A DNA stretch of 64,000 bases from IMG/VR virus record IMGVR_UViG_3300027917_004314. One strand, given 5' to 3'. The notes below the pieces were generated by a model that worked only from the letters and a program-made list of their open reading frames with translations, was not told where the DNA came from and ran no database searches. The translations under genes were made by a program, and so were the position numbers. This DNA is from a virus. Its lineage: Duplodnaviria > Caudoviricetes. This document shows, in pieces, positions 27,041 through 64,000 of the stretch. The first letter of the stretch is position 1. Every line of letters begins with the position of its first letter.

Positions 27041-27808
27041 ATGTCGTACAAATTAGCGCAATCAGCAGGCGAGGGCACTGTAACTGTAGAGGATATAAGG
27101 AAAACCCCATACTATCAACCAACGCAAACCGAGAGAAATCTAAGTAATGCTCATGCTTACATTCTATCTTTGGTTAGAGCGCTACGACATAGAGATTCAA
27201 GAATTAGGGAACAAGCACTTGTTGGGCTTGAAAAATACATGCAACCGTTCGGAGATTTGGTAAATAGAATAATCCGTGGGGCTTCGTCGGTGGATGAACT
27301 TATTAGTATTGCCGATGATCTAGACAAAATGGGAGAACACCGGCTGGCCGATAAAGTTGATAATATATTGAAAATTAATCAGTTTAAGGAAGCTGAATCT
27401 AATGTATTACGCTTGACAAAGATCGCTAACTATATGGACAGTATTGGGTTATATAAAGCGGCTGATAATATTGATGAAGCTCTAGAGTATGGATTTTTTC
27501 CAAGAGAAAGAGTTTCTGGAGAGGAATCAAAGGAACCTGAGCCAGTGCAGCCTCCGCGCGAAGGGTCTTTATCTACTAGATATTGCCCTGACCACATAGG
27601 AGTGCAAGCAGCTCGCATTTCCGAACGCGCATATCAGTGTCCAATTGATGGAAAGGTTTACAACTACGAATTAGGTTATGAAAATTATCAAGGACAAAAA
27701 GTCCCGGGCGGAAGTGTAGCGGCACAAACTCCAACTAGCAGCGATTATGGCGGCATTCCTATGAGGATATATGATAGCCGTCAGTCAATTCTGAATAAAG
27801 TAAATTAA
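27041..27808 (+). CDS. Hypothetical protein with two copies of the helical LxxxAxxLDxxG motif and a C-terminal Cys/His site
   Basis: ISIADDLDKMGEHRLADKVD, TKIANYMDSIGLYKAADNID, CPDH...CPID. Confidence 0.7.
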   Translation: MSYKLAQSAGEGTVTVEDIRKTPYYQPTQTERNLSNAHAYILSLVRALRHRDSRIREQALVGLEKYMQPFGDLVNRIIRGASSVDELISIADDLDKMGEHRLADKVDNILKINQFKEAESNVLRLTKIANYMDSIGLYKAADNIDEALEYGFFPRERVSGEESKEPEPVQPPREGSLSTRYCPDHIGVQAARISERAYQCPIDGKVYNYELGYENYQGQKVPGGSVAAQTPTSSDYGGIPMRIYDSRQSILNKVN

Positions 27809-27825
27809 TAATAAAAAGGTGTTTC

Positions 27826-27880
27826 CGCCCGATAGATCCTCGCAAATCAAAATACGAGCATCTATACGGGCGTTTTCTTT
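27826..27880 (+). terminator. Long interrupted hairpin plus T-rich tail
   Basis: CGCCCG/CGGGCG, ATAGAT/ATCTAT, CTCG/CGAG (16 bp), then TTTTCTTT. Confidence 0.65.
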
Positions 27881-27891
27881 GAAGGTGTTTA

Positions 27892-28644
27892 ATGTCATTT
27901 AGAAAAATACTCTCTCATCCAAATAGGACAATGATAATACGGATGTTGACCCAAGGTCAGGGAGTTAGGGCAGTCGCAAAGGCGGTTAAAGAATTACATC
28001 CAAGTGATAGGAAGTTGCACGTGTCAGTGCCAACTCTACAAAAATTTAGGAAAGAGAAGCTGAATTTGGATGGAAAAGCTTTGGAAGCAGTAAAACAAGC
28101 TGCTAAAGAAAAAAAAGAGATGAAAGAAGCCAAAAAAGAGGATACCGAGCTTAGAAGGATTCCCATTTATAAGGAGAAGTTGCAAGAGGCGATAGATCTA
28201 CATGTTGATATCCCACAGCAGTTGCGTGAACTTCTGGTTCTAGTAAAGGCGCGTGTTGAGGATCTTTTTGATAAATCGTCCAAGGGCGAGCTGTCCGTAA
28301 ATGAAGAAGCCAATCTTCATAAATATTTTGCTAGCTGGACAGCTACTATTCAACAGTGGGCGAAATACGTAGATAAGATTGCCGAAAGTTCTATAGACGC
28401 GAATATTAACATTACCGTAATTGAGGACCAAGTGTCGGTTATTAGAGAAACAGTGCGCGAAGTTTTAGAAGAGACAGACCCAGATTTAGCCCTAAAATTC
28501 TACGACAGGCTAAGTTCTAAGATGTCAGATCTTACGTACAAGAGAAAAAGAGAAAGTGTTAAAACGATACACACCGAAACCAAGGCGGCTTTAGAGGCGC
28601 ACATTGAGGAGGCAGAAATAGAAGATGCCAATAAATTACGCTGA
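27892..28644 (+). CDS. Hypothetical protein with N-terminal HTH and coiled coil; candidate terminase small subunit
   Basis: HPNRTMIIRMLTQGQGVRAVAKAV...SVPTLQKFR; same module as terL; function weakly inferred. Confidence 0.4.
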   Translation: MSFRKILSHPNRTMIIRMLTQGQGVRAVAKAVKELHPSDRKLHVSVPTLQKFRKEKLNLDGKALEAVKQAAKEKKEMKEAKKEDTELRRIPIYKEKLQEAIDLHVDIPQQLRELLVLVKARVEDLFDKSSKGELSVNEEANLHKYFASWTATIQQWAKYVDKIAESSIDANINITVIEDQVSVIRETVREVLEETDPDLALKFYDRLSSKMSDLTYKRKRESVKTIHTETKAALEAHIEEAEIEDANKLR

Positions 28645-30169
28645 CGATCTCTTAATAAATATGTCCGATGCTGGTATGACTTCTGATTTGCAACAGCTTG
28701 TATATGACGATGCTAGGGCAATGTCGGATGTCGGTGTGGAAAATGACAGGGAAAGAAACCTGTTTTTTTACTTAGACCATTTCTGCGATGATTTGTGCAA
28801 TGAATTCGGATACTCGACTTTTGATGCCAAAGATAGGAACAATATTATTTCCTTGTCTTTCAGATTTTTAAAAGGTAAGGATGATATAGACTTAACTAAA
28901 ATACGTGAAGCAGTATATACGGCGCTAAAGAAAATATTTACAAAAAAGGCCTATCCTAATATAATGGGTGTTCATGAGTCTAACGCAAAACCAAGAAGGG
29001 ATGTGAACAAATGGGTAAAGGCTCTTGGGGAGATATATACAGCCATGAGAGAAGGTAAAACCAGAGAGTCTGCTAGTCAAAAAGTAATGGAGGGATGGAG
29101 CCCAATGGAAAAATTGGATTTTGGTGCATGGGCCAGGTATTATGAATCAAAAGATCATGAGAAATATGGCATTAAGAGAACTGCTGCTCCAGTTGAAATT
29201 CCTACTCTAGAACAAGAAATTCCTCAAGAAACGCCTGAGCAGGTGATCACACCAAAAAAAGGAAAGACTCCAGAAGAGATGAAAGCTGCTCTAATTAGCA
29301 GACTAAATGCCGCTGAGAAACTTTTATATCGGTTTGTTAATGTGTGGCCCAACGATGTGTATAATAGGCTACATCAGGGCTTATCGGATCTAAAACGAGA
29401 AATAATGATACTTAGAAGTGCATCGATGATGCAAGATTGTATCATCAGAACTGCTGGTATGTGGGAGTTAAACGGATTTATAGAAGGCGCCGACATTCTA
29501 AAAAAAGTTGCTCAGCCACCAGAGGACCTGACTTCTCAGATTGAGAGGGCCTTGAGTGGTCGAGAATACGAAGGAAAGCCGGCTGTTCCGGAAGCACCGT
29601 TGCCGCCAGGTGGTGACATGGACTTTGGGGCTGGAGAACCAATGCCGCCGCCCGCAGAGTTGGAAGGTCTAGAAGGGATGGAAGTACCAGTTGGTGCTGG
29701 CGAAGAGCTGCCACCACCAGAAAAGCCACCGGAGTCGCCAAAAGAAAAACTAGAAGAAGAGGAAAAACCTACATTAGACGAAGAGGAAAATCCCTTTGCT
29801 GGTAAAACTGTGCAAGATGTTTTAGAAGTTCTTGAGCCGTTAGCCAAGCAGTTAAGAGAGAGGCAGTTTGTTAGGGCTCTAGCGAAGGCTGATATGATAC
29901 TCGATTCACTGAATATTGCTTCGCATTTCCCAGAATTGGGAGAGGCTACGGCCAAAGCCCTGGAGTTAAATATATATGTAGGTACTAGAATAAACAAGAT
30001 AGTAGAAAAGCTAAAAGGTGGTCTTAGAGAGGGAGAGAAGGAAGAAAAAGAAAAAATGCCGCCAGCTGTAGAGATGGAAGAGTTGGAAACTCCAAAGAAA
30101 AAAGTGGAGGAAGAGGCATTTGAAGTAACTGAAGAAGCCGCGCCAGCGTCTACGCCAAGAGGTAGATAA
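28625..30169 (+). CDS. Hypothetical head-module protein with Pro/Glu-rich linker
   Basis: Long ORF; IIRTAGMWELNGFIEGADILKKVAQ motif variant. Confidence 0.7.
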   Translation: MPINYADDLLINMSDAGMTSDLQQLVYDDARAMSDVGVENDRERNLFFYLDHFCDDLCNEFGYSTFDAKDRNNIISLSFRFLKGKDDIDLTKIREAVYTALKKIFTKKAYPNIMGVHESNAKPRRDVNKWVKALGEIYTAMREGKTRESASQKVMEGWSPMEKLDFGAWARYYESKDHEKYGIKRTAAPVEIPTLEQEIPQETPEQVITPKKGKTPEEMKAALISRLNAAEKLLYRFVNVWPNDVYNRLHQGLSDLKREIMILRSASMMQDCIIRTAGMWELNGFIEGADILKKVAQPPEDLTSQIERALSGREYEGKPAVPEAPLPPGGDMDFGAGEPMPPPAELEGLEGMEVPVGAGEELPPPEKPPESPKEKLEEEEKPTLDEEENPFAGKTVQDVLEVLEPLAKQLRERQFVRALAKADMILDSLNIASHFPELGEATAKALELNIYVGTRINKIVEKLKGGLREGEKEEKEKMPPAVEMEELETPKKKVEEEAFEVTEEAAPASTPRGR

Positions 30170-30947: not shown

Positions 30948-32147
30948 ATGTCTAATTCTTTCGCTAGAATGTTAAAAATTGCCGAGATGTTATACGATGT
31001 TGGAGATTCTGAAGGTTTTGAGCGGTTGTGCGTTCAATTGAACGCATATTTTAAAAAGTGCGCTCATTTTGAACCCTTGAATGATGGCATCACTCCGAAT
31101 CCGTGGAGGCATAATATGGACTATGCCGAGTGGGAAAATTCGCCGTATTATGGAAGCATGACAGAATTTATGGAGAAATTTCCTGGTGGCATTCCAGATT
31201 GGATTAAGTGGCGTCGTGAAACGCAAAAACAAAGAAATCTTATGTGGAGTAAAATATCTGCTAGGCGAGATAACACTAGAATAAAGATAGCAGCCGATAA
31301 AATTGCGCTTGTATTAAAAGCATGGTCTAAAAGGTTAAAAGACATTGCAAGGGCAGGAGCTGTAGCATATATAAATGAGATGGAGACCAGTGCAAAAAAG
31401 TGGTCCATACAGGTTAATAAATGGCGTTATATTAAAAACGATTTAGAACCATTCTTAAAAATTTTAGATAGATATATAGATGAAGAAATAGAATCTAATA
31501 ATTTGAGCGCAGTGGTTATCAGTTTGTATAAGTTTAGGAATACTCCAAAGTATAAACGGTATTCGGATTTATTCTTTAACATGATAAGTCAGATAACAGA
31601 CAGCGCTTCTGAAAGATTTTTTAATTATTTGAACGACATGGAAACAAAGTTTATGCAAGTAGCTGAAGATGAGCCGCTATGGCCAGATCCTAAATTGTTT
31701 CCAGATGATCCTGAAGGCATGTTTGAACCCACACCATTTGAACCAACTGAGGAGGAAATTGAAGAATCGCAAAAACCTACAGTTGAAGAGGAGCGGGCAC
31801 AAGCCAGGCAACTTATTGAGAAGGTATTAGAGCTGGTTACTAAAGAGGAAGCCGAAATGCTTCTCAAAGAGAGCGCTCCCAAAAAGATAGTCGAAGCTAA
31901 GTTTGTGCCTGTGGGGCCGGATGACACAAAAAAGTTTCCTAAAGAACCACACTTGTGGTCTGACGAGGGCCTCAAAAAATTTAAATCAGTAACAGATTTT
32001 CTTAAAAAATATCGTAAACGGGACCAGAAGGCGGATGATCTTGGATCTGCGGCCTTGAAAGCGATTCAAGATTTTATAGATTACTGGAAACTATTACAAA
32101 AAGGCAAAGAGAGAAGGACTAAAGCTAAAAAAAGGAAAGGCAAATGA
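30948..32147 (+). CDS. Hypothetical protein
   Basis: AGGAG RBS; N-terminal helical motif variant; basic C-terminal tail. Confidence 0.65.
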   Translation: MSNSFARMLKIAEMLYDVGDSEGFERLCVQLNAYFKKCAHFEPLNDGITPNPWRHNMDYAEWENSPYYGSMTEFMEKFPGGIPDWIKWRRETQKQRNLMWSKISARRDNTRIKIAADKIALVLKAWSKRLKDIARAGAVAYINEMETSAKKWSIQVNKWRYIKNDLEPFLKILDRYIDEEIESNNLSAVVISLYKFRNTPKYKRYSDLFFNMISQITDSASERFFNYLNDMETKFMQVAEDEPLWPDPKLFPDDPEGMFEPTPFEPTEEEIEESQKPTVEEERAQARQLIEKVLELVTKEEAEMLLKESAPKKIVEAKFVPVGPDDTKKFPKEPHLWSDEGLKKFKSVTDFLKKYRKRDQKADDLGSAALKAIQDFIDYWKLLQKGKERRTKAKKRKGK

Positions 32148-34259: not shown

Positions 34260-34286
34260 ATTTTTTTGAAAACGGAGATACACGAA

Positions 34287-36863: not shown

Positions 36864-36865
36864 TC

Positions 36866-38719: not shown

Positions 38720-38728
38720 AGGTGACTA

Positions 38729-40750: not shown

Positions 40751-40800
40751 ATGGTAGCAATTTTGAATATTATGAGGAAAAGGGATATTAAGGGTGAAAT

Positions 40801-41070: not shown

Positions 41071-42853
41071 AAATCCAGATGTACCTTCTGTAAAAGAGGC
41101 TGTTATGCTAGCAGACCTATTTGACAGTGTCGGGGAATATGAGACTGCCGCATTGTTGGATGAGTTTGTCAAACACGCCATGTCTGATGATATCATGAAA
41201 CAAGCGGGGTTTTGGTCTAACATTTTGAAACGCCTCAAGGGTAGATCTAAGAGAATTTTCTTCTCGGTGTATAGAGAACTTCATGATAAAGCAAAAGATG
41301 CACAAGAAGAACTTGATGCCGAAGTCAAAAGAATCAATGAGGATTTTAAGAGTGTTAAAAAACATCTTAAATTATATGAGTTAGTGGATTGGCGTTATGA
41401 AGCGCAAAAACTGGGCCTGGCAAACGTAGAGGAGATCATGTCTGGCTACGACCAAGCCTACGCTAAACTAATAGGGTTCTTTGACGTTCATAAAAAACCT
41501 GATGAAGAAATTTCCGAGGAAGAAAAACCAGAAGAAAAATTATCACCTATTGAAAAGTTACCTGGAAAACCTACAGGAAGACGCATACCTGGTGCAGAGG
41601 AGGGGTGGGTTAGGTTGGATCCACGTACTGCATCAATTCAGAAGAATGAGGAGACGGGTGACTTAAGAATCGATTTTGACAAGTTTCAAGACTATTTAGG
41701 AATCCATTTGGGTATGCCAGCGAAAAATAAAGTTAGATTTGTAGAACATCGCGGCAAATTGGGCAGACTTGAAGATTTAAAAGAGTTTATGGGAACTGAT
41801 ATCTGGAACATTATAAAAACTGATGATAAGTGGGTGTATTTATCTAAGACAGAACCAATCGTACCAGAGGAAGTGGCTATCGAGCCTGAAGAAGAAGAGG
41901 AAGTTGAAAGCCCATTTGATATAGTACCAACACTAGAACCGGAAAAAGAAGTGCCGGAAAAAAAGGTCACAAAAGAAAAACCGAGCCCGCCGCCGTCACC
42001 GCCGAAACCAGAAGAAGTTGCAGAAGAACGAATTGTCGAAGAAGAAGAAGAAGAGGTTCCTGAAGTGTCTGCATCATCTAAGATGGAACGGTTTATCGAA
42101 AAATATTATGATAGCAACATAACTGTAGATGGATTGTGGAAAGATATATATGGTATGATGCGCGAGGGCGTTTCGATTGATGAGGCGATAGAATCTGTCG
42201 AGGACATTTATGATTGGTATTCAGGCTTATCAGACTTGGATCGTGCCAGCATAGCGTTTGTGGCAAATAAATTGGTAAACAAGGGCGTCAGATTGTCTGA
42301 TGCACTTAGAAGACTAAAAATTAGTAAAGAGAAGGCTGAGACTTCCGAAGAGCCGGTTACAGAAGAAGAACTGGCGCCTACGAAGCCAGAAATTCCTGCC
42401 AAGCCGCCCGGTAAATCTTTTATGGAATGGTACAACTCTTTGGCACCTGAAGACCAACAGAAGGTAACCGAAGAGATTAATAGGCTGGTTGATGAAGGTC
42501 TGACTACAGAGCAAGCAAAAGAAAAGGTCCAGTCGATGGTGGCCATGCCAACCACGGAGCCAACTGCCGTGAGACCTAAAGTATGGGTAGAAAGGCCTGG
42601 CATGAGATGGCACAGTGCAGCAGCAAAGAGGGGCATGATAGGCTATGTACGAATACTTGAATCAAATGTCAAAGAGACCGACAGAATAGAGACCGACCCA
42701 GAAGTTATAGAATTTTTAAATTATCAGTCGCAGGGCAAACGTGTGGCAGCGTTGCCAGCCAACTGGCGAGAAATATTGACAGGATATCGCCAACAGCAAT
42801 CCCCAAGAACAGCACGAATGAGAAGAATAATGGAATTGCATACAACTTCATGA
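41057..42853 (+). CDS. Acidic hypothetical head-module protein
   Basis: N-terminal helical motif VMLADLFDSVGEYETAALLDEF; Glu/Pro-rich linkers; GGAGG RBS. Confidence 0.7.
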   Translation: MTKSKNPDVPSVKEAVMLADLFDSVGEYETAALLDEFVKHAMSDDIMKQAGFWSNILKRLKGRSKRIFFSVYRELHDKAKDAQEELDAEVKRINEDFKSVKKHLKLYELVDWRYEAQKLGLANVEEIMSGYDQAYAKLIGFFDVHKKPDEEISEEEKPEEKLSPIEKLPGKPTGRRIPGAEEGWVRLDPRTASIQKNEETGDLRIDFDKFQDYLGIHLGMPAKNKVRFVEHRGKLGRLEDLKEFMGTDIWNIIKTDDKWVYLSKTEPIVPEEVAIEPEEEEEVESPFDIVPTLEPEKEVPEKKVTKEKPSPPPSPPKPEEVAEERIVEEEEEEVPEVSASSKMERFIEKYYDSNITVDGLWKDIYGMMREGVSIDEAIESVEDIYDWYSGLSDLDRASIAFVANKLVNKGVRLSDALRRLKISKEKAETSEEPVTEEELAPTKPEIPAKPPGKSFMEWYNSLAPEDQQKVTEEINRLVDEGLTTEQAKEKVQSMVAMPTTEPTAVRPKVWVERPGMRWHSAAAKRGMIGYVRILESNVKETDRIETDPEVIEFLNYQSQGKRVAALPANWREILTGYRQQQSPRTARMRRIMELHTTS

Positions 42854-42860
42854 GGGCTAT

Positions 42861-51017: not shown

Positions 51018-51099
51018 CGGATGAATAGAAAAATCCAGGTCTTCCTACTAATAAAGAAATATCAAATTGCATACTTAGCGATATTGGAGACTTCGAATT

Positions 51100-51399: not shown

Positions 51400-51410
51400 C
51401 GGGAGCAAAT

Positions 51411-52064
51411 ATGAATGATAGTATCACCAAAATAGCCAAAATTGTTAAAAGAAAAGGCAAATGGTGTGTAATTGGGCATAAAAAAACAAAGGGGAAATAT
51501 CGCAATTTTGGTTGTTATGACTCAAAGGAAGAGGCAAAAAAGCGACTTGGGCAGATTTATTTGTTTAAATTAAAAAAAGCCGAGTTGTTGAAAACTCTAA
51601 TTCAGGTCTCCGACCAATTAGATAAGCGCGGCATCATCCATATTGCCGATGCACTTACCGGCTGTATTGAATCTATTGCTTCCGAAGATTCAGAAAACCA
51701 GTCTGTTATTAAGCTCGGCAAAATTATTTGTCTTTTAAAAAAGAAAGGGGAAAATGAACTAGCAGAAGCCGTTGATAATTTACTACCAGACGTCTTAAAG
51801 CTCGAATGTGTTGACTGTGATATAGAAATTCCCAAGTCCAGGAAAAGGATCTCTGCTCTAAGAGCTTACAACATAGTACAAACGCTTCATAGAAAATATG
51901 TTGAAGGTATGATAGACGAAAATTGTTTTGAGTATTCCAAAATGGAAGAACTAAGAGCCATGCTTAAAGAAGGGTTTTCATTTCCTGCGCCGCCATCATA
52001 TAATGCATTGCCAGAAGATGTCGACAATTGGTGGGATCATTTTTTAAAACGAGGTGACAAATAA
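51411..52064 (+). CDS. Hypothetical protein with an N-terminal W..G.Y...A module and two helical motif copies
   Basis: KWCVIG...NFGCYDSKEEAKKRL; LIQVSDQLDKRG; LLKKKGENELAEAVD. Confidence 0.7.
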   Translation: MNDSITKIAKIVKRKGKWCVIGHKKTKGKYRNFGCYDSKEEAKKRLGQIYLFKLKKAELLKTLIQVSDQLDKRGIIHIADALTGCIESIASEDSENQSVIKLGKIICLLKKKGENELAEAVDNLLPDVLKLECVDCDIEIPKSRKRISALRAYNIVQTLHRKYVEGMIDENCFEYSKMEELRAMLKEGFSFPAPPSYNALPEDVDNWWDHFLKRGDK

Positions 52065-52328
52065 ATGGTAATTAACAAACTCTCCGATAAGGCAAAAGTG
52101 GCGCTGCTTGGAAAACTAGATGCCATTATAGAAAATGATCCTCAAATCGAGGCCGATGATTCTATGGTTCTGTTGGCAGAGTTGGCGGATAGATTAGACG
52201 CCGAAGGTTTTTGTGAAGCAGCTAACGAGATAGATGCACTTATCGAACAAAAGAATAAAAAACTTAAAAGACCTGGGCGAATGAAAGCTAAAGAAATAAG
52301 ACAAAAATTCGCCAAGAATAAAAAGTAA
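52065..52328 (+). CDS. Small protein consisting largely of the helical motif
   Basis: LAELADRLDAEGFCEAANEIDALIE. Confidence 0.7.
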   Translation: MVINKLSDKAKVALLGKLDAIIENDPQIEADDSMVLLAELADRLDAEGFCEAANEIDALIEQKNKKLKRPGRMKAKEIRQKFAKNKK

Positions 52329-52685: not shown

Positions 52686-52689
52686 ATAT

Positions 52690-55801: not shown

Positions 55802-58800
55802 ATGGCCATATTTAAAACTGCTCAGTTGGAAGTTAGACAGGTACATAATACAGATTTAATGGCATCCTCCAAGCCCATGGAGGCTCTACTCCTTGGCTCT
55901 GAGGCAGCGAAAGCTGACGAACAAATAAAACAACGTTTTGTTAAATTCGCCCAACATTTGAAAAGAGTTGCGCCAAAGGCCAAGGATTTCCTGTACTTTA
56001 GTTGTATTATGATGCATGCAGCAGAGGCTGCACTAATTGATCAGAACACCGGCTTGCCGGTAAAGAATGGTGAAGACGAAGTTACGTCCGAATGGAAAAT
56101 AGATAACAAGGGATCCTGGAAATGGGCCTGTTCTGATCCGAACATTAAGCCTTATAAAAACAACAACGGCGATATTTTTCCAGAAGTAGAGCTTAAAAAA
56201 GCTTATAGAAAATGGATTGGTCGCCCCCTTTGCAAAGATCATCAAAGCGGTTCCGTTGATGGTATTCGTGGTATCATCGTAGATACTTATTATGATGACA
56301 AACGCAAAAGAGTTATTGCCCTATGCGCTCTGGATAAAATTAATTATCCAGATCTTGCTAGAAAAGTTTCTACAGGTTATGCTACAAATGTTTCTATGGG
56401 CACAGCAGTTGGCATATCTATCTGTTTTGAGTGTGGCAATATCGCAAGGGTAGAGGCCGATTATTGTCCATGCGTCAAAACTAAGAAAACTTATGGTGAA
56501 ATTAATATTGACCTCTCGCCCATTGAGTTGAGCCTGGTAGTCACGGGCGCAGATCCTCAAGCCAAATTGAGGAATGTAATCGCCAGTCTTGAAAAATATT
56601 CTAATGAAAAGGGTGAAAGAATTAAGGAACTTAAAAGAGCTGGTTGTGTTACACCAGATGAACTGACGAGGTTGGAGAATGAGATAGTTGATTTAAGGAA
56701 TACTGTGAGAGCAGCAACCAACCTCATGTTTTATAAAGCCGCAGCTGTTGGGCCTGGTGCTGAAAACATAGAACAGGCGAGGAATTTAGGAGAAGTTCTA
56801 AAACATCTGACCAGTCCAGAAGCAAGAAAAAAAGTCGAAAACATTATTACTTCTCTATTAGAAGAGGTCCCTGCAGAAGAGCCAGTTGAGGTGGAACCAG
56901 CAAGTGCTACTCCAAGCACCAAAGATATGGGAGATACTGAAAAAGGGTACACCGGATCCAACTCTGATACTGGACCGCCAGAGTGGTCACCAGAGAGAAC
57001 TGATATTATGAGAATGACCAGTGATAAAACTGCTGATTTAGGAATACAAATAAACGCTATTAATAAGAAGCTGGACGCCATGGAACTTGCACTTCGTGAC
57101 ATGGCAACGGGCGTCCAGGAAGTCACAACACATAAGGAGGAGCAATCAATGTCTGACAAAGAGCTTCGTCAAAGGGCAGCTGCCCGTCGTGCAATGTTTC
57201 AAAAATCTGCCTATCATCAGGGTGGGGGGGATTTGAATGATCCAGCTAATCTTCCATATCCCGTTGATCCATTGAATGATCAACTCAAGACGAAAGGAGA
57301 CAAGCAGATGGAGGGTCAGGGTATGGAGCCTGGAAATGATGGTCTGCACCCAGGTTATGACAGCTTTGGCCAATCCGAAGAGTCCCTAAAGAAAATGCTT
57401 TCTAGGGCTGAATTAGAAGAGAGAAAGATGCGCAGACACGCATTCATGAAGCAGGCTGAGGAGCCAGCGCAAGAGCTGGAGACCAAGAAAACGCCTAGCG
57501 GTGCCACCGTTGCAAAAACCCCGGACGGAAAGGTTATTATGCTTAACAATGATGGCACATACAATGAAGTGGACGATACCCAGATCCAACAGGCTAGAGA
57601 CCTAGTCAAAATGGTTGGTAGGGGCACTCCATCACCCACCAAGAAAGAAGCCTATTGGCAAGGTGGTGGCGGTGTTAATGAGCCACAAACTTATCCGGTT
57701 GACCCCATGAATGATAAGTTGAAAACTGATGGCGATAAGCAAATGGAAGGACAGGGTATGGAGCCAGGTAACGACGGCCTGCACCCAGGTTACCAGAGCT
57801 ATGGTAATGAAGAAGCTCTAAAAAAGAAGCTTCTCCGCGCTCAGCTTCGCGCTAAGTTTATTGTAGCCTACAAAAATGAAGATAAGACTGTCATTGACAA
57901 GAAAAATTCTCGTTGGGAAATCTATGCTGGCCCAGATAAGATTCTTGAGGCGACTGGCGCAGAGATCTACGAGGATGAGCTAGAACAGAATTGGGAATTG
58001 CTGGCGAGCAAAGAGTGGGGTCGCAAGGCAATCGCAGCTATTCGAGAGAAAGGTTTCGAACGTGTAGCATGGTTGTTGAAGGGAGAAAGTCTTGAAAAGA
58101 CTGCTCAGCCACCAATGCCTCCACCCACAGCAGGTGGCGAAAAGCCAATGCCGCCTCCTCCAGCAGTCGAAGGGCTACCAGAAGCTGCTCCTGAGGAAGA
58201 GGCGAAGGATCCTGTTCAATCAGCTCTAGATACGCTATCTGAGAGTTTGGAGAGCGCAGAGAAGGCTATGGGCGATCTTAAGGATGCCCTTGAGGAAGTA
58301 ACTGGCAAATCAGAAGGTGCTGAGCTTCCAGATGTTGGTGGCGCCGAGGCCGACGATGCAGAGCAACTTGCAATGGCAGAAGTCGCATCTCAGATCAAGG
58401 AAGTATATTCTGGCCTAGATGAAAGCGCAGATGAGCTGGCTATGCTAGCTGAGTCGCTTGAATCACGTTTCAAGGCTGGAAAGGGTTCAGAGGATGCGGT
58501 AACCGCCGAACTTCTTCGTCTTGCGCCTGAGGCAGTAAACGAGAGTGCTGAACTTCGCAGAGAAGCATCCCTTGTTATTGATGCCGCCAAGAAGAAAGAA
58601 AAGAAGGAAGAGGAAGAAGATGAAAAAGAGGAGAAAGAAGATGACAAGAAAGATAAGAAGGGCAAGGGCAAACTGCCGCCTGCTCTTGAAAAAGCTATAG
58701 AGAAGAAGAAAGAAAAGAAGGAAAAGAAAGAAGACAAGAAAGAAGATAAGGAAGAGAAAGAAGATGAGGAAGAGAAAGGGGAGAAAAAAGAAAAGAACAA

Positions 58801-59959
58801 CAATGGTAAAAAGAGCAAAGCAGAAGTTTTGTTAGAGAATCTGTTGAAGGCTCGTGCCGCAAAGCGTCGTGAGTTAGTCCGTGAGGCTGATGAAGAGGTG
58901 GCAGAGTCGTATGCTGCTGAAGGCATGACTAAAGCTGATGTTGAGAAGATTGTTAAAGACCTCCTAGATGAAATGGGCGTTACCTCGGAATTTATGAAAG
59001 AAGAAATGGAGGAACCAGAGCATGCTCCTGAGGAAGAGGCTCTTGTAGTAGAGGAGCCAGCCGGTGAGCTTGAAACTTTGATGGAAGGATCTCCAGAAGC
59101 GTCAGATGGCCTAGAACTCGAGCTTTCTCAGATGCTAGATGATTTGAATGCCCTAGAAGATCAGGCTGTAGAACAGGAGGCTGATAGTGTTCCTGTCCCA
59201 GTTGGTGATTTAACTGTCGATGCTGAAGCTCGTAAAGCATGGCGTGAGAGAGTAGCTGCTGAGGTTGGCGCCAAGTATCAACTTTCTCTTGATCAGGCTG
59301 TAACAGTTGATTCCGATATGCCAGCTAAGTTCCATCCACAAGGTGGCCACGATCTTGAAAGGTTGGACATTTCCCCATCCGATCAGGGAGCATATTTTGA
59401 GACTATCGTCGAGCAGCATGATAAAATCATGAAGGAAGTTCAGAATCTTCCAAAAGTTAGAGAAGCCATGGAGCATCTGGGCGGGCTGCTTAAGAATGGT
59501 ACGCTGACCATTGATGATCTAGACGATGTTAAGAAGTTGAAGGCACTTGCGGTGGATCCTGAAGCTGCCAAGTATTGGAAAACCTACTTTGGTGAGGGAG
59601 ACGCCGAAAGCAAGAAATTTGGAAACGAACTCACTCAAGAATATACAAAGAAGAAGTCTGAGGCAAATCTAGACGAACAGCGCGTGAAACTGAGCAGAGC
59701 ATATGACATCGCTCTTGATATGCAAGAAAAGGGCATGATAGCTGACGATCGCGCAACCTTGGAAAAGCAAGTTAATGAGATTATGAGCTTTGATAACAAG
59801 AGCTTTGAATCTTTCAAACGTGCACTTTCCCGTGTAGCTAAGCCAGCACAGGTAAAAACAGCAGCTCCGGCACTTAATGTTGGGGTTAGCTCTGAAGATT
59901 TGGGCGAAGGAGTGACTTCTCCAGAGAACCTGGCAGATCAGCTTAGGAAAATGTGGTAA
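55802..59959 (+). CDS. Prohead protease fused to scaffold/core protein
   Basis: NNNGDIF, candidate catalytic His (PLCKDH) and Ser (NVSMGT), CFEC..CPC insert, IELSLVVTGADPQA; then a long acidic/basic coiled region. Confidence 0.75.
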   Translation: MAIFKTAQLEVRQVHNTDLMASSKPMEALLLGSEAAKADEQIKQRFVKFAQHLKRVAPKAKDFLYFSCIMMHAAEAALIDQNTGLPVKNGEDEVTSEWKIDNKGSWKWACSDPNIKPYKNNNGDIFPEVELKKAYRKWIGRPLCKDHQSGSVDGIRGIIVDTYYDDKRKRVIALCALDKINYPDLARKVSTGYATNVSMGTAVGISICFECGNIARVEADYCPCVKTKKTYGEINIDLSPIELSLVVTGADPQAKLRNVIASLEKYSNEKGERIKELKRAGCVTPDELTRLENEIVDLRNTVRAATNLMFYKAAAVGPGAENIEQARNLGEVLKHLTSPEARKKVENIITSLLEEVPAEEPVEVEPASATPSTKDMGDTEKGYTGSNSDTGPPEWSPERTDIMRMTSDKTADLGIQINAINKKLDAMELALRDMATGVQEVTTHKEEQSMSDKELRQRAAARRAMFQKSAYHQGGGDLNDPANLPYPVDPLNDQLKTKGDKQMEGQGMEPGNDGLHPGYDSFGQSEESLKKMLSRAELEERKMRRHAFMKQAEEPAQELETKKTPSGATVAKTPDGKVIMLNNDGTYNEVDDTQIQQARDLVKMVGRGTPSPTKKEAYWQGGGGVNEPQTYPVDPMNDKLKTDGDKQMEGQGMEPGNDGLHPGYQSYGNEEALKKKLLRAQLRAKFIVAYKNEDKTVIDKKNSRWEIYAGPDKILEATGAEIYEDELEQNWELLASKEWGRKAIAAIREKGFERVAWLLKGESLEKTAQPPMPPPTAGGEKPMPPPPAVEGLPEAAPEEEAKDPVQSALDTLSESLESAEKAMGDLKDALEEVTGKSEGAELPDVGGAEADDAEQLAMAEVASQIKEVYSGLDESADELAMLAESLESRFKAGKGSEDAVTAELLRLAPEAVNESAELRREASLVIDAAKKKEKKEEEEDEKEEKEDDKKDKKGKGKLPPALEKAIEKKKEKKEKKEDKKEDKEEKEDEEEKGEKKEKNNNGKKSKAEVLLENLLKARAAKRRELVREADEEVAESYAAEGMTKADVEKIVKDLLDEMGVTSEFMKEEMEEPEHAPEEEALVVEEPAGELETLMEGSPEASDGLELELSQMLDDLNALEDQAVEQEADSVPVPVGDLTVDAEARKAWRERVAAEVGAKYQLSLDQAVTVDSDMPAKFHPQGGHDLERLDISPSDQGAYFETIVEQHDKIMKEVQNLPKVREAMEHLGGLLKNGTLTIDDLDDVKKLKALAVDPEAAKYWKTYFGEGDAESKKFGNELTQEYTKKKSEANLDEQRVKLSRAYDIALDMQEKGMIADDRATLEKQVNEIMSFDNKSFESFKRALSRVAKPAQVKTAAPALNVGVSSEDLGEGVTSPENLADQLRKMW
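57200..57843 (+). repeat. Internal ~67-aa direct repeat in the scaffold (57200-57410 and 57641-57843)
   Basis: AY[HW]QGGG..N[DE]P..YPVDP[LM]ND.LKT.GDKQMEGQGMEPGNDGLHPGY..[FY]G..E.LKK.L.RA. Confidence 0.9.
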
Positions 59960-60204: not shown

Positions 60205-60229
60205 AAACTATCTATTGGAGGTTTACAAA

Positions 60230-61048
60230 ATGACAAGCCTAAAGCGACAAGACGCTGATGAAATTATAGACGCAATGGCTAGGGCTCTTGGGGGTGATAT
60301 GTTCAAAGCGGCTTCGGTAGAGAAAGAAGCCCAAGGAATGAGCATAGAGCTATTGATGGCCCTTATGCATGAAGAATATAGGAAAGGCAAAGCGCAATAT
60401 GATTCTATGGATGAAGCGCAGGCAAGCAAGGCGGTATCTACCAAAGTGTGGAACGAGAATTTGGAAGATATTCAGGCACAAGAAAATAAAGAGCCTGGCT
60501 TTTTAGAGAGGGCTGCTGATCTGAGAGACAGCTATATGGTTCCAAAAAGAGCTGCCGATGATGGTGCTGCTGAACAACCTTGCGACGATTGCGACGAACA
60601 AATGGCACAAGACCAGCCAGAACGAGAAGCTCAGACTTCTCTAGCTATTGACTTTGCAATGGGTCATCTAGTGAAGATAGCTGATGCTCTTGATAACAAG
60701 GGTTTTGCCGGTGTGGCCAGCATTGTAGATGAAACAATCGAGAAATTAGCAAAAAAAAAAGTAAAAAAAAAGTATAAAACTTGGGAAGGAAAAGACGAGA
60801 AGTCGCCCAAAGGAGCAGAATATAAGGCTCCCAAGGAGTGGTTTGACAAAATGAAGGCAGATGTCAAAAAGAAGAATCCTGACTACTCTGCCAAAAGAAT
60901 TAGAGAGATTGTCGGAGATATTTGGGACAATGAGCTTAGCGAAAAGAAACGCAAATCTATCCTTAAAAAGTATGAAAAGGGTGGCAAGGAAAAGAAAGCT
61001 GAAGATGAAAGACCCGCTAAGCTTGCTAAATCCAAAGATCAAGACTAA
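60230..61048 (+). CDS. Hypothetical head-module protein with helical motif and basic C-domain
   Basis: GGAGG RBS; LVKIADALDNKGFAGVASIVDETIEKLA. Confidence 0.7.
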   Translation: MTSLKRQDADEIIDAMARALGGDMFKAASVEKEAQGMSIELLMALMHEEYRKGKAQYDSMDEAQASKAVSTKVWNENLEDIQAQENKEPGFLERAADLRDSYMVPKRAADDGAAEQPCDDCDEQMAQDQPEREAQTSLAIDFAMGHLVKIADALDNKGFAGVASIVDETIEKLAKKKVKKKYKTWEGKDEKSPKGAEYKAPKEWFDKMKADVKKKNPDYSAKRIREIVGDIWDNELSEKKRKSILKKYEKGGKEKKAEDERPAKLAKSKDQD

Positions 61049-61069
61049 TAACATAAAAGGGAGAACCGT

Positions 61070-61765
61070 ATGCTTCGAATTATACAAGCCGGAAATGCAC
61101 TCCCCTTCAGTTATCCAGTTGATAGTTCAAGTTCATTTCAACCCGGTCAGATAGCACAACTTAAGTTGGTAGGTCAAGACATTGTTGCCGGATTATCAGA
61201 TGGAACTGCTCCATTGGGAATTATCGACGATATCCGTACGACCGCATTTACTCAAACAGTAGTGGATGAGATTGTTGTTATACCTGGTGTTGATATCACT
61301 ACTGATGGGTATAACAATTTTTATAATGGAGCAGATTCTAAGCAAGAACTTAATAATGCTGGATTGATACAATCTAGTTTTGTTGCCGATTATGAAGGTT
61401 TAGTTCTTAATCCAACTAATGGTATTTTGACCCTTCCGGCTAACAGCTTGCTGAACTATGACAGTGATGGTGATAACTTAGAAGATAGTGTTAGAACTAT
61501 CGTTAACTATGTATATCAAGTACCTTCGCTGCCTGGCGATGATACAACAATTGGTAGTAATAGAATAACTGTTTGGTTTCAAAGAGGGATTTTTGCTACA
61601 GATCAGTTCGATTCGCTACAGCGATATCCATTAAATGCAACATTATTTGTAAGTTCAGAAGGAAAGTTAACTACAAGTCAGGCGACGGCGGACCATCCTG
61701 GTGTAGCTATAGTTACCGGTCCTCCAAGTGCAATAGAAGGTACGTTAGAATTTATGTGGTTATAA
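61070..61765 (+). CDS. Probable virion structural protein (head decoration/cement-like)
   Basis: Beta-rich, downstream of the scaffold; FQPGQIAQL...APLGIIDD and GIFATDQF...PGVAIVTGPP; function inferred from position. Confidence 0.5.
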   Translation: MLRIIQAGNALPFSYPVDSSSSFQPGQIAQLKLVGQDIVAGLSDGTAPLGIIDDIRTTAFTQTVVDEIVVIPGVDITTDGYNNFYNGADSKQELNNAGLIQSSFVADYEGLVLNPTNGILTLPANSLLNYDSDGDNLEDSVRTIVNYVYQVPSLPGDDTTIGSNRITVWFQRGIFATDQFDSLQRYPLNATLFVSSEGKLTTSQATADHPGVAIVTGPPSAIEGTLEFMWL

Positions 61766-61775
61766 TGGAGGCGTA

Positions 61776-62141
61776 ATGACTTTTTCAAAAGAGGATAAGG
61801 CTGCGTGGCTCAATAGCGAGGTTATGCAAGAGCTTGAAAAACTTGGTGAGAGCGTCCTTAATGGGCCACCTCCCGAGGCTTTCGAGCCGCTAGAGAATGT
61901 TGCAGCTGCTGAAACATGGGAAGACGAAGACTTGGAAGAAAAAATAACTGAAGCCGTTAAAGAATTTGAGCAGCCTGTAGTTCCAATTGAGAAAGAGTTT
62001 GTTGTTGCGTATAACAAGCGTCTTCTTGCAAACATAGAAAAGATTGCGTATCATCTATCAGACAAAAAAAACATTACGGCTGCATATAGAGTAGAACAAT
62101 CATTAAGACAACTTAAAGCTTTGTTGCGGGAGGAAAATTAA
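61776..62141 (+). CDS. Hypothetical protein with helical motif variant
   Basis: GGAGG RBS; IEKIAYHLSDKKNITAAYRVEQSL. Confidence 0.65.
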   Translation: MTFSKEDKAAWLNSEVMQELEKLGESVLNGPPPEAFEPLENVAAAETWEDEDLEEKITEAVKEFEQPVVPIEKEFVVAYNKRLLANIEKIAYHLSDKKNITAAYRVEQSLRQLKALLREEN

Positions 62142-64000
62142 ATGCGCAATTTAAATATAGGCGGATCTTGGGAGGAAGAGTTCTATAAGATAGCATCTGA
62201 GAAAGGATGGATCGTAAAAGAAGCTGTTGAGCCCGAGCCCGCAACAGCACAAGAAGAAGGTTTGGAGTTCGAGCCGACTGTGGTTAGTGTGCCTAGGGCT
62301 GGGAAAACTATTTGGGATTTGCAGCAGATTCTTCAAGTAACGGTACCTACCATGCCGCTTAGCAAAGAGGGGGGGCCGGATGGTAAGTGGGGTCCTATGA
62401 CAGCCAGAGCATGGAATGCGCTGGCTAGTCAAGTTAACGCCAAGAAGGGAGATTTGGTGTTGACGGATGTCAACCCAGATGGTAGCGAACTTCCGATTTT
62501 AGACCAAATGAGGTGGGTTATAGCAGGGATGCCAAGTGGCACTTCCGAAGATATAGTTAAGGAGCTTCAAGGTGCCGGTGCTGCTGCAAAGGTGGACGAT
62601 GATATGAAAACTACAGCCTTTATAGTTCAAGAACTGATTTCTTTAGCTGGCGACCTAGAAGAAATGGGAGAAGTCGAGGCCGCTGTAGCTGTCGATAAAC
62701 AAATATCCATTTATAAGGAAGCGCTGGATAAGTTGTATGATGTAACTGGTGAAACAGGAGAACAGCTTGTCGAGCAGGCTCATCCGGGCGGCGGCCCTAC
62801 TATTGTCCCGGCAAAGGAAGAGGGCGGCAAAGTCGAGACTATTGTAGAAGAACAGAAGAAAAGTATCGACAAGGCAACTAAGAAGCCTACTGGTAAATAT
62901 GCCCAACTGATGCTTAATCTAATTGCTACCGCCAATAGCCTTGAGGATGAGGGTAGGACAGAAGAAGCCCAAATGGTGGATCAAACATTACGAGAACTGT
63001 TAGAGACACCCCCTTTCGCGGGTAGGGGTACAGCTTCCGAGACGGCTGGCTCCGAGGATTCGAAAGTCTCGGGCTTAGAGAAAACAGCGTTTATACAAGA
63101 GGGCATTCCTAGCGATATTAAAGACTTTCTCGGTCACCTTCGAGAGGATAAAGGAAATGTTGATAGGTTATATTGGCCTGCAATGGATGGGGTTATAAAC
63201 AAGCTTTCTCCACACATTGCCATATTTGAAAGAGTCGAAAAGTTAGATTTTACTAAAGAAGCAAATGTTAAGAAAGCTCAAAGAGCGGCTGTATTGTTGT
63301 ATAAAACTTTATTGCAGGCGCTTGGACCGGTATATACCATTGCAGAAAATAACAGATTATTAAGTAGAGGTATGATTCTTAAAAAGAGATTTTATGATAT
63401 TTTTACCTCTTTGAAGGAATTGCTTAGCGGTGCCTCATATGCAGCTAAAGAATTTGGTCCGAAAAAAGCTCCAAAACCGGCTCCGGCTGTCGCCAAGAAG
63501 CCTGAGTCTCAAATCCTTAGAAATTATAGGTCTGCTTTGCGAAGAGTGCTTAAAGTAATGGAAAACCCTGATTATAAGCTTCTGAATATTCTTGGTAAGG
63601 GTGATAGAAAAGCTGGCAGGCGCAAAGCTTTTGAAATTGAGAATATAATAAAAACAGAACTAAAGAAACACTACGATAAAATCCAGGCTGGAGACAGACT
63701 CGATGCGCTTTATAACAAAACTATAAAGCCCCTACAGACCCATGGAATTATTATTGCCTCGGCAAAGGAAGAGCTTGTAAAGGAAGCTGATCTTGGAATT
63801 TCTATTGCACCCAAGGAAAAGCCATCAAAGAAAAGGCCCGCGAAAGGTAAAGCCGTAGAGATAGATCCATTGGTGAAGACGTTTCAACAGGCAGCGATGG
63901 CGCTACATGGGCCAAATGCAGTCGGACCAAAGAAAGATGATGGTAAGTGGGGGCCTAGCACGAAAGGTGCCTATGAAAAGGTGATGGCTGAACTTCGTAA
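62142..64000 (+). CDS. Partial ORF (open at the window end, absent from the track) with two peptidoglycan-binding-like motifs and two helical motif copies
   Basis: Translated by hand: MRNLNIGGSW...; DGKWGPMTARAW and DGKWGPSTKGAY; no stop to 64000; GGAGG RBS. Confidence 0.75.
   Translation, partial: MRNLNIGGSWEEEFYKIASEKGWIVKEAVEPEPATAQEEGLEFEPTVVSVPRAGKTIWDLQQILQVTVPTMPLSKEGGPDGKWGPMTARAWNALASQVNAKKGDLVLTDVNPDGSELPILDQMRWVIAGMPSGTSEDIVKELQGAGAAAKVDDDMKTTAFIVQELISLAGDLEEMGEVEAAVAVDKQISIYKEALDKLYDVTGETGEQLVEQAHPGGGPTIVPAKEEGGKVETIVEEQKKSIDKATKKPTGKYAQLMLNLIATANSLEDEGRTEEAQMVDQTLRELLETPPFAGRGTASETAGSEDSKVSGLEKTAFIQEGIPSDIKDFLGHLREDKGNVDRLYWPAMDGVINKLSPHIAIFERVEKLDFTKEANVKKAQRAAVLLYKTLLQALGPVYTIAENNRLLSRGMILKKRFYDIFTSLKELLSGASYAAKEFGPKKAPKPAPAVAKKPESQILRNYRSALRRVLKVMENPDYKLLNILGKGDRKAGRRKAFEIENIIKTELKKHYDKIQAGDRLDALYNKTIKPLQTHGIIIASAKEELVKEADLGISIAPKEKPSKKRPAKGKAVEIDPLVKTFQQAAMALHGPNAVGPKKDDGKWGPSTKGAYEKVMAELR

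What the first reader, a model, noticed from the sequence alone, without database searches (positions are those of the whole stretch)
27299..62999. A 24-aa amphipathic motif (L-x-x-[ILA]-A-x-x-L-D-x-x-G-x4-A-x-x-[IVL]-D) repeated about 14 times in 11 head-module ORFs
Seen in sequence at approximately 27299, 27413, 29441, 30969, 34764, 41099, 51597, 51704, 52171, 54705, 60668, 62034, 62634 and 62919 (e.g. LVKIADALDNKGFAGVASIVDETI, LAELADRLDAEGFCEAANEIDALI, LITLADYLDEEGCVNGAKYIDTLI); several copies are degenerate. The host proteins are otherwise unrelated, and the motif was not seen in 1-23.9 kb. Inference: a portable helix-turn-helix docking or capsid-targeting tag that recruits cargo into the prohead core, functionally like the T4 capsid-targeting sequence.
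Basis: partly seen in the sequence, partly recalled or inferred. Interest (0 to 1): 0.75.

Follow-up and report, generated by a model that had tools for sequence, protein, structure and literature searches.

The report
Portable two-helix tag, megaphage head proteins
An uncultured giant phage related to Bacillus phage G puts the same 28-34-residue acidic two-helix module on at least nine otherwise unrelated proteins encoded among its head-assembly genes; it is real, matches no library family searched, and is most likely a docking handle for the assembling head, though no partner was found.

Summary
A profile finds 9 strong copies in 7 ORFs of the window, plus 2 more copies in 2 ORFs elsewhere in the 161-kb record. 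These score 28.8-37.4 bits; the next best hit is 3.4 bits, and shuffled proteomes reach 6.0 at most.

Four of the five "degenerate" copies are conserved hairpin-like stretches in orthologues, but they are only suggestive. The signature is L-x-x-L-A-[DN]-x-L-D-x-x-G-x-x-x-E-A-[DN]-x-[VI]-D-x-phi-[IL]. AlphaFold2 models it as a free-standing helix-turn-helix (pLDDT about 90).

A search of 1.84 billion representatives gives 2,249 clusters, all unnamed in the sample I checked. No Pfam or PDB family fits, and the four phage records scanned (Bacillus phage G and three others) lack it.

In six related records the copies lie almost only in the roughly 45 kb upstream of the major capsid gene. In a complete 442-kb genome, 11 of 12 copies are there. 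Two paralogous genes before the capsid gene carry a -1 frameshift site just after the hairpin, so their short products end with it, as the P22 scaffolding protein ends with its coat-binding helix-turn-helix.

Best reading (0.5): a portable docking module that brings proteins into the prohead. The partner is unknown, and the capsid protein shows no co-variation. Earlier notes of this scan describe a similar tag on other genomes.

The parts
27293..27376 (+). hairpin copy 1 of the 255-aa ORF (27041-27808)
   Evidence: 34.0 bits; the C-terminal Zn-ribbon-like part of the host protein is shared with P0081/P0029
27407..27490 (+). hairpin copy 2 of the 255-aa ORF
   Evidence: 37.4 bits
34758..34841 (+). 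hairpin in the 865-aa ORF (34266-36863), directly upstream of the large terminase gene
   Evidence: 32.5 bits; terminase 36866-38719 matches phrog_675, E 1.3e-57
41093..41176 (+). N-terminal hairpin (aa 13-39) of the 598-aa ORF (41057-42853), just after the portal gene
   Evidence: 30.0 bits; kept at the same place in orthologues L003, L008, L010, L011, where it is among the best-conserved stretches (97th percentile); portal 38729-40750 matches phrog_16240
51591..51674 (+). hairpin in the 217-aa ORF (51411-52064); a second, degenerate copy lies at about 51741-51800
   Evidence: 33.2 bits; the degenerate copy scores 3.4 bits but is conserved in orthologues and aligns in register
52167..52250 (+). 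hairpin in the 87-aa ORF (52065-52328)
   Evidence: 33.4 bits
60662..60745 (+). hairpin in the 277-aa ORF (60215-61048), just after the 1385-aa protein that carries the head-maturation protease domain (55802-59959)
   Evidence: 35.2 bits; protease domain matches phrog_18299 and phage G gp19
62628..62711 (+). hairpin 1 of the 916-aa ORF (62142 to 64892, running past the window end)
   Evidence: 30.2 bits; AlphaFold2 helix-turn-helix with pLDDT about 90; invariant L, A, L, G, D columns in 19 orthologues
62913..62996 (+). hairpin 2 of the 916-aa ORF
   Evidence: 28.8 bits; pLDDT 88-96
63011..63017 (+). slippery heptamer C CCT TTC right after hairpin 2; the -1 frame stops two codons later, giving a product of about 294 aa that ends with the hairpin
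   Evidence: read directly; the same heptamer and the same -1 stop follow the hairpin of the 464-aa paralogue (L019:2046-3437); P-F is invariant in 19 orthologues
29441..29524 (+). possible diverged hairpin in the 514-aa ORF (28625-30169)
   Evidence: below threshold; conserved in six orthologues; hhalign P 5e-5, probability 68%
30963..31040 (+). possible diverged hairpin (first helix and turn only) at the N-terminus of the 399-aa ORF (30948-32147)
   Evidence: hhalign P 9.5e-5, 16 columns
62028..62120 (+). possible diverged hairpin in the 121-aa ORF (61776-62141)
   Evidence: hhalign P 1.2e-4, probability 55%

Best explanation
The motif is a small, independently folding, acidic alpha-helical hairpin. 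Helix 1 reads L-x-x-L-A-[DN]-x-L-D, the turn is x-x-G, and helix 2 reads x-x-x-E-A-[DN]-x-[VI]-D-x-phi-[IL]. It serves as a portable protein-protein docking module of the head-assembly machinery in one clade of uncultured phage-G-like megaphages.

Its likely original home is the gene in the scaffold position, just upstream of the decoration and major capsid genes. There, two hairpins flank a highly conserved linker, and a -1 frameshift makes a short product that ends with the hairpin. Copies of the same hairpin on other head-module proteins would then let those proteins bind the same site as this scaffold-like protein and be built into the prohead. These hosts include proteins with zinc-ribbon-like, peptidoglycan-binding-like or hydrophobic segments.

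Shown here: the module, its fold class, its spread, its conservation, its confinement to the head gene block, and the frameshift placement.

Inferred: that it binds one common partner, that the partner belongs to the prohead, and that tagged proteins end up inside it. The two small residues A10 and A22 probably form the helix-helix contact. The near-invariant Asp/Asn at positions 11, 14, 23 and 26, and the extra hydrophobic stripe on helix 1, probably form the binding face.
For: - Separation from noise: bimodal scores, 11 copies at 28.8-37.4 bits against 3.4 bits or less for everything else and 6.0 or less in shuffles. Leave-one-out recovers all nine seed copies.
- Ancient copies under protein-level selection: 33% aa and 44% nt identity between copies. 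Across 263 copies, eight positions are 90-98% conserved.
- Fold: both copies of the 916-aa family are helix-turn-helix with pLDDT about 90, flanked by stretches under 50. They match only generic single hairpins, for example the UvrB C-terminal hairpin at rmsd 0.5 A over 38 residues.
- Portability: 1-3 copies per protein at N-terminal (85), C-terminal (32) and internal (175) positions in the best 150 hits. Host proteins are unrelated apart from one paralogue pair.
- Placement: 10 of 11 copies lie in genome 59-99.4 kb of the 161-kb record. In the 301-kb and 340-kb relatives, 9 of 10 and 8 of 9 copies fall within about 47 kb around the portal. In a complete 442-kb genome, 11 of 12 lie in 42 kb just upstream of the capsid gene. 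Across 25 capsid-gene loci there are 19 copies upstream and 1 downstream. None lies in the tail or baseplate block.
- Scaffold position: in the compact relative L031, a protein with three hairpins sits between the protease and capsid genes.
- Frameshift: C CCT TTC lies directly after the hairpin in both paralogues, with -1 stops two codons on, so the short forms end with the hairpin. The P22 scaffolding protein likewise binds coat protein through a helix-turn-helix domain (abstract of bioRxiv 10.1101/2022.12.13.520362 and title of PMC12005531, listed; its C-terminal position is from my own knowledge).
- Ancestry: a sister clade whose capsid protein is 75-77% identical keeps a degenerate hairpin in the orthologue of this gene, but has none on other proteins. 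This fits an origin in the scaffold-position gene followed by spread.
- Indirect support: in phage G, the short form (gp22) of a joined-CDS gene at the equivalent position was detected in the particle proteome (PMC12484599).
Against: - No partner was identified.
- The capsid protein does not co-vary with presence of the signature. It shows only 19 scattered, mostly conservative clade-specific positions.
- The hairpin is acidic (mean net charge -2.5), whereas the P22 helix-turn-helix is basic (my own knowledge).
- One conserved copy sits in a 79-aa ORF among nucleic-acid enzyme genes, about 55 kb from the portal gene.
- One three-copy protein from another lineage (P0004) lies among MoxR/CobT, ligase and superoxide-dismutase genes, not recognisable head genes.
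- The four phage records whose whole genomes were scanned (phage G, Tunturi_5, LR745208, Rctr197k) lack the motif, and a BLAST of a three-copy protein found nothing in the 50,697-record phage collection. No virion proteome therefore bears on it.
- The 2718-aa polyprotein and the 1385-aa protease protein in the same block have no copy.
Confidence: 0.5

Rival explanations
1. The hairpins bind one another. They would be homo- or heterotypic association modules, perhaps bridged by divalent cations through the Asp/Asn cluster, that knit several head-module proteins into one scaffold or core network. No separate receptor would be needed.
For: - All paralogous copies keep the same eight positions, as expected if every copy must fit every other.
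- Many proteins carry 2-3 copies spaced about 80-180 residues apart, which would allow cross-linking.
- Helix 1 has more hydrophobic positions than hairpin closure needs.
- The capsid protein does not co-vary with the signature.
Against: - Net charge of -2.5 per hairpin disfavours self-association without counter-ions.
- In the AlphaFold2 models of a two-hairpin module and of a tandem mini-protein, no solved structure matched both hairpins together with low rmsd. This suggests they are not packed on each other (rmsd 9-13 A for matches spanning both).
Confidence: 0.2
2. The hairpin is a recognition or propeptide element for the prohead protease. It would dock substrates to the protease, or mark the piece that is cut off, rather than determine entry into the prohead.
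For: - Many copies are at the extreme N-terminus (85 of 143 proteins), like the propeptides of T4 and SPN3US head proteins (PMC5694885).
- In the 598-aa family the N-terminal hairpin is followed by a conserved D-[IL]-[IM]-K-Q-A-G-[FL] stretch.
- The 277-aa hairpin protein is encoded right after the protease-domain protein.
Against: - No cleavage site is known for this protease.
- Many copies are internal or C-terminal.
- The candidate boundary motif F-x-L-S-K-R-A occurs in only one hairpin protein and far from the hairpin.
Confidence: 0.1
3. The hairpin is a general interaction handle with no link to the capsid. It could be a tag read by a phage chaperone or remodelling machine; a VWA/MoxR-type system could bind an exposed Asp through its metal site. 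The head-block clustering would then be a by-product of gene history.
For: - The 79-aa hairpin ORF lies two genes after a VWA-domain protein in this genome.
- P0004, with three copies, lies three genes after a CobT_C protein and near an AAA_5 ATPase.
- The near-invariant residues are Asp rather than Glu.
Against: - The VWA neighbour is absent next to the orthologous small ORF in G001 and G002.
- AAA_5 genes in those genomes lie far away, and none is in the 161-kb record.
- Clustering next to portal, protease and capsid genes is strong and repeated in seven records.
Confidence: 0.08
4. There is no shared function. The hairpin would be a favourable TPR-like structural brick that duplicated by chance within neighbouring genes.
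For: - The spacing of key residues (L7, A8, L11, G15, Y17, A20 in TPR numbering) matches the tetratricopeptide consensus (my own comparison).
- The top, non-significant Foldseek rows for the tandem model are TPR proteins.
- Designed TPR proteins appear among weak PDB sequence hits.
Against: - Eight positions are 90-98% conserved over 263 copies, including four surface Asp/Asn.
- The hairpin is retained in orthologues while its surroundings diverge.
- There are 2,249 protein clusters.
- The hairpins are solitary and flanked by disorder rather than stacked.
- No Pfam TPR family is hit.
Confidence: 0.07

Closest known systems
[quoted passage not shown]
   Same: Both are short helix-turn-helix units. 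In the two frameshift-made short products the hairpin sits at the C-terminal end of a protein encoded just before the capsid gene. The P22 domain is portable: fused to foreign cargo it loads it into procapsids (PMC9962691 title and abstract; details from my own knowledge).
   Different: No sequence similarity (one search found no such PDB chain). This hairpin is acidic, the P22 domain basic (my own knowledge). Here the module is naturally present on nine or more different proteins per genome and at any position in them. Binding to the capsid protein is not shown, and the capsid protein does not co-vary with it.
Capsid targeting sequence (CTS) of phage T4 internal proteins IPI-III and Alt
   Same: Both are a shared short element on unrelated proteins of the head module, proposed to bring them into the prohead core (PMC5694885).
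   Different: The T4 CTS is a 10-20-residue N-terminal propeptide removed by the gp21 protease. This is a folded 28-34-residue hairpin that is often internal or C-terminal and present in 1-3 copies. Cleavage is unknown and the sequences are unrelated.
Long N-terminal propeptides of giant-phage head proteins (SPN3US, phiKZ, 201phi2-1)
   Same: They occur in giant phages, on several inner-head or ejection proteins, and are inferred to target proteins into the prohead (PMC5694885).
   Different: No common sequence motif was reported among those propeptides in the passages read. They are over 100 residues long and are removed. Here one sharply conserved mini-domain is reused.
UVR domain (UvrB C-terminal hairpin that binds UvrC)
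   Same: The best local structural match: rmsd 0.5 A over 38 residues (2nmv_B). It is also a free-standing alpha-hairpin used for protein-protein contact (function from my own knowledge).
   Different: No sequence relation and no Pfam hit. The biology is different.
Tetratricopeptide repeat (TPR)
   Same: The spacing of small and large residues in the two helices is the same. The weak sequence and Foldseek hits are mostly TPR proteins.
   Different: The hairpins are solitary and not stacked into a superhelix. No TPR Pfam family is hit. The conserved Asp/Asn signature is foreign to TPRs.

Membership tests
T4-type capsid targeting sequence | 10-20-residue peptide at the extreme N-terminus | tested here: not met
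   The module is 28-34 residues. Of 292 copies, 85 are N-terminal, 175 internal and 32 C-terminal. In this genome only the 598-aa and 79-aa proteins carry it near the N-terminus.
T4-type capsid targeting sequence | removed by the prohead protease after assembly | not testable with these tools
   No proteome of a motif-bearing phage exists in the collections searched.
T4-type capsid targeting sequence | sufficient to load proteins into the prohead | not testable with these tools
   This needs an experiment. Only the placement in the head gene block is shown.
P22-type scaffolding coat-binding domain | helix-turn-helix fold | tested here: met
   AlphaFold2 gives two helices joined by a three-residue turn, pLDDT about 90.
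P22-type scaffolding coat-binding domain | C-terminal end of a protein encoded next to the capsid gene | tested here: met
   This holds for the -1 frameshift short forms of the 916-aa and 464-aa proteins, but not for the other seven host proteins.
P22-type scaffolding coat-binding domain | basic face that binds an acidic residue of the coat N-arm | tested here: not met
   Mean net charge is -2.5, with conserved Asp/Asn at four positions.
P22-type scaffolding coat-binding domain | binds the major capsid protein | tested here: inconclusive
   There is no co-variation of the capsid protein with the signature between sister clades. This is indirect evidence only.
Tetratricopeptide repeat | match to a TPR profile | tested here: not met
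   No TPR family at E 0.01 or better in 10 window proteins, nor at 0.001 in 81 relatives.
Tetratricopeptide repeat | three or more hairpins stacked into a superhelix | tested here: inconclusive
   There are 1-3 copies separated by long disordered linkers. Matches spanning two hairpins have rmsd 9-13 A.
UVR domain (PF02151) | match to the Pfam profile | tested here: not met
   No hit. The only likeness is structural, to 2nmv_B.

The most novel reading that the evidence does not exclude
The hairpin and its unknown receptor form a cohesin-dockerin-like address system inside a virus capsid. One folded tag, copied onto any protein, would load it into the megaphage prohead. The -1 frameshift in the scaffold-position genes would set the ratio of bare adaptor to adaptor-plus-cargo. 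Sister clades would have swapped to different tags while keeping a capsid protein that is 75% identical.
Probability: 0.3. Interest if true: 0.75.

Novelty: new variant of a known kind. Interest (0 to 1): 0.6.

Why it matters
No scaffold protein or loading signal has been confirmed for any giant phage (stated for the phiKZ/SPN3US group in PMC5694885).

A sharply defined, folded, portable tag on a dozen head-module proteins gives a concrete handle on three questions:
- It predicts which unannotated proteins of these uncultured phages are built into the head.
- It marks the probable scaffold gene.
- It offers a simple test: fuse the tag to a reporter.

If it is a loading tag, it would also be a natural tool for packing foreign proteins into very large capsids, as the P22 and T4 tags are used now.

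The family is large (2,249 clusters at 50% identity) and matches no Pfam family.

Tried and rejected
- **Complex prediction.** The major capsid protein (alignment A5) was folded with the hairpin (alignment A1). Result: no verdict, score 0.00, controls not run. This is no evidence either way.
- **Libraries.** Pfam and PHROGs on the host proteins gave only sub-threshold or unnamed hits. PDB by profile gave nothing at E below 0.05, only a designed protein cage, RESC6 and designed TPR proteins. The ESM Atlas returned only unnamed viral clusters at scores of 0.83 or less.
- **Phage collection.** Megablast of 20 kb of the window and tblastn of a three-copy protein found nothing. Profile scans of phage G, Tunturi_5, LR745208 and Rctr197k found nothing. 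The search tool warns that an empty answer proves little, but my own unfiltered scan of 40 kb of the phage G head region also gave at most 7.2 bits.
- **Capsid N-terminal extension as receptor.** The first 48 residues, which find no counterpart in the phage G capsid protein, were considered. They are present in both the hairpin-bearing and the hairpin-poor clade, and there are no clustered differences.
- **MoxR/VWA link.** Not conserved in synteny.
- **Basic helical tag R-V-A-x-R-F.** This tag, described by earlier notes for other megaphages, was considered as a possible partner. It does not occur in this 161-kb record.
- **Hairpin-hairpin packing within one chain.** AlphaFold2 models gave no support.
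- **Earlier notes by sequence.** The look-up found nothing, so I could not confirm that the two-helix tags described there are the same family.

Full report
**Where the window lies.** The window is bases 32001-96000 of a 161-kb virus record. All real genes are on the + strand. The block holding the motif also holds:
- the large terminase, 36866-38719
- the portal, 38729-40750
- a 2718-aa multi-enzyme protein with ligase, DJ-1/PfpI and LigD phosphoesterase domains
- a 1385-aa protein whose N-terminal part is a head-maturation protease

Just past the window end lie two more motif-related genes, a decoration-like protein, and the major capsid protein at genome 100368-101399 (phrog_2522, E 1.4e-76). 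The capsid protein is 54% identical to that of Bacillus phage G, the nearest cultured phage.

The robust count is therefore 9 copies in 7 ORFs in the window and 11 in 9 ORFs in the record. Of the five "degenerate" copies, four are conserved in orthologues with the same spacing and align in register to the profile at P about 1e-4. I cut those segments in register myself, so this is only suggestive. The fifth has no support. The copies are old: 33% amino-acid and 44% nucleotide identity between them. The host proteins are unrelated outside the motif, except that the 916-aa and 464-aa proteins are paralogues.

**What the module looks like.** Across 263 distinct copies the signature is:

phi-x-x-L(91%)-phi-x-L-A(92%)-[DN](93%)-x-L(93%)-D(94%)-x-x-G(96%)-x-x-[KE]-E-A(98%)-[DN]-x-[VI]-D(90%)-x-phi-[IL]

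It consists of two 12-residue pseudo-halves, each of the form A-[DN]-x-phi-D. Mean net charge is -2.5.

AlphaFold2, run on an alignment of 19 orthologues of the 916-aa family, models both copies as two helices joined by a three-residue turn. pLDDT is about 90, and the flanks fall below 50. Structure searches match each hairpin only to generic alpha-hairpins. The closest is the UvrB C-terminal hairpin, rmsd 0.5 A over 38 residues. Matches spanning both hairpins have rmsd 8-13 A.

A natural tandem mini-protein folds as four helices with pLDDT 73. Its top Foldseek rows are non-significant TPR proteins at rmsd about 10 A. The residue spacing does follow the TPR consensus (my own comparison). Even so, the hairpins are solitary beads on disordered strings, no TPR profile is hit, and the Asp/Asn signature is foreign to TPRs.

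**How widespread it is.** A profile search of 1.84 billion representative proteins gives 2,249 clusters at E 0.001 or better and 79 at 1e-10 or better. These proteins are 35-1266 aa long and carry 1-3 copies. The 20 I looked up come from metagenomes or MAG bins and carry no informative name. Pfam finds almost nothing in 81 of the longer ones.

The four scanned relatives (phage G, Tunturi_5, LR745208, Rctr197k) lack it, and BLAST with a three-copy protein finds nothing among 50,697 phage records.

**Where the copies lie.**
- In the 161-kb record, 10 of 11 copies lie between 59 and 99.4 kb. None is in the 60 kb of virion and tail genes that follow, nor in window 1-24 kb.
- Whole-record scans of five relatives give the same picture: 9 of 10 and 8 of 9 copies fall within about 47 kb around the portal in the 301-kb and 340-kb records.
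- A complete 442-kb genome has 11 of 12 copies in 42 kb directly upstream of the capsid gene.
- Around 25 capsid genes with 10 kb on each side there are 19 copies upstream and 1 downstream.
- The single recurrent outlier is a conserved 74-79-aa ORF, about 52-60 kb upstream of the portal where portal coordinates are known (own record, G001, G002, G004), lying next to an RNase HII gene; G009 has a 74-aa counterpart outside its head block.
- In one other lineage, a three-copy protein lies among MoxR/CobT, ligase and superoxide-dismutase genes. The head-block rule therefore holds for this clade but may not be universal.

**The scaffold-position gene.** In the 916-aa family the N-terminus is freely variable. 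The segment that follows is highly conserved: hairpin 1, then K-L-Y-D-I-T-G-E-T-G-E-Q-L-I...A-H-P-G-G-G-P-T...E-G-G-K-V-E-T-I-V-E-E-Q-K-K...P-T-G-K, then hairpin 2, then P-F.

The P-F is encoded by C CCT TTC. In the -1 frame a stop follows two codons later. The 464-aa paralogue has the same heptamer and the same -1 stop right after its hairpin. Earlier notes of this scan (e1-5390266, e1-5390267) reported these as conserved frameshift sites. I checked the sequence facts myself, but not the conservation of the RNA structure.

The short products would thus end with the hairpin. This parallels the P22 scaffolding protein, whose helix-turn-helix domain binds coat protein (papers listed). In phage G, the gene at the equivalent position is annotated as a joined CDS, and its short form gp22 was detected in purified particles (PMC12484599). 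However, phage G has no hairpin and no detectable sequence similarity there, so this is weak support.

**A natural comparison.** A sister clade with a 75-77% identical capsid protein includes a complete 481-kb genome. It has no signature copies. The orthologue of the 916-aa gene keeps a degenerate hairpin (L-K-L-C-A-G-L-R-T-Q-G-L-A-K-E-A-S-E-I-E), and the 464-aa orthologue keeps only the first helix.

This fits an origin of the hairpin in the scaffold-position gene, with later spread onto other head-module proteins in one clade. The capsid proteins of the two clades differ at only 19 scattered, mostly conservative positions. The capsid protein therefore shows no sign of co-evolving with the signature. 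That lowers, but does not exclude, the idea that it is the receptor.

**Reading.** The evidence supports a portable protein-protein docking hairpin of the head-assembly module. I put about 0.75 on that general statement and 0.5 on the specific claim that it recruits its hosts into the prohead through a shared site. The main rival is that the hairpins bind each other. Other rivals are a protease-docking or propeptide role, a chaperone tag, or no shared function.

Comparison with the T4 capsid-targeting sequence is by analogy only. The module fails the defining features of that tag and of TPR and UVR families. It shares fold and placement, but not charge, with the P22 coat-binding domain.

**Earlier notes of this scan.** Several follow-up notes on other genomes describe a 28-35-residue two-helix tag on unrelated head-region proteins of phage-G-like megaphages (e1-5378386, e1-5369575, e1-5362322, e1-5379144). 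They are probably the same family, but their sequences are not shown and a sequence look-up found nothing. They are not independent evidence.

Noticed in passing
L023:1659-6111 (relative G001): The major capsid gene of the 301-kb relative matches in four separate pieces spread over 4.5 kb (query residues 1-74, 75-97, 97-166, 167-343). It looks interrupted by three insertions, possibly introns or homing elements.
   Followed up: no
L017:18309-21128 (genome coordinates 18309-21128): The phage gyrase B gene carries an intein splicing domain (Pfam Intein_splicing, E 1.9e-7) after the GyrB domains.
   Followed up: no
window 62142-64000: The 916-aa hairpin protein has two D-G-K-W-G-P-x-T stretches resembling the PG_binding_1 core. 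Three relatives hit PG_binding_1, and the phage G gene at the equivalent position is annotated as an endolysin.
   Followed up: partly
L019:889-3437 (genome 96889-99440): The 385-aa protein and the long form of the 464-aa hairpin protein contain long hydrophobic, membrane-like segments and are basic (pI 9.0-9.7), like ejection or pore-forming proteins.
   Followed up: no
window 27041-27808 and proteins P0081, P0029, P0064, P0046, P0131: Small hairpin proteins often end in cysteine-rich, zinc-ribbon-like domains, for example R-Y-C-P-x-H...C-P-x-D-G. One (P0131) has a DnaJ-type C-x-x-C-x-G-x-G pair.
   Followed up: no
window 60215-61048 and P0108, P0060: The 277-aa family shares a conserved basic C-terminal domain (W-F-D-K-M...N-P-x-Y-S...I-G-D-I-W) behind one or two hairpins.
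   Followed up: no
window 35727-53172: The heptapeptide [FY]-x-[LI]-S-K-R-A occurs five times in three large proteins (865 aa, 2718 aa, 669 aa) and nowhere else in the record. Only the 865-aa protein also has a hairpin.
   Followed up: partly
window 61070-61765 and L019:3618-4268: Two very acidic proteins (pI 4.1, few Lys/Arg), of 231 aa and 217 aa, are among the best-conserved head-block proteins: 46% and 45% identity even in the hairpin-poor sister clade. The 217-aa one sits where phage G has its decoration protein.
   Followed up: partly
L017:13981-15942: In this genome only, a VWA-domain protein lies two genes upstream of the 79-aa hairpin ORF. An Eco29kI-like endonuclease and an RNase HII follow.
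   Followed up: partly
window 52672-54681: The 669-aa head-block protein has weak, sub-threshold matches to dual-specificity/tyrosine phosphatase families at residues 443-569.
   Followed up: no
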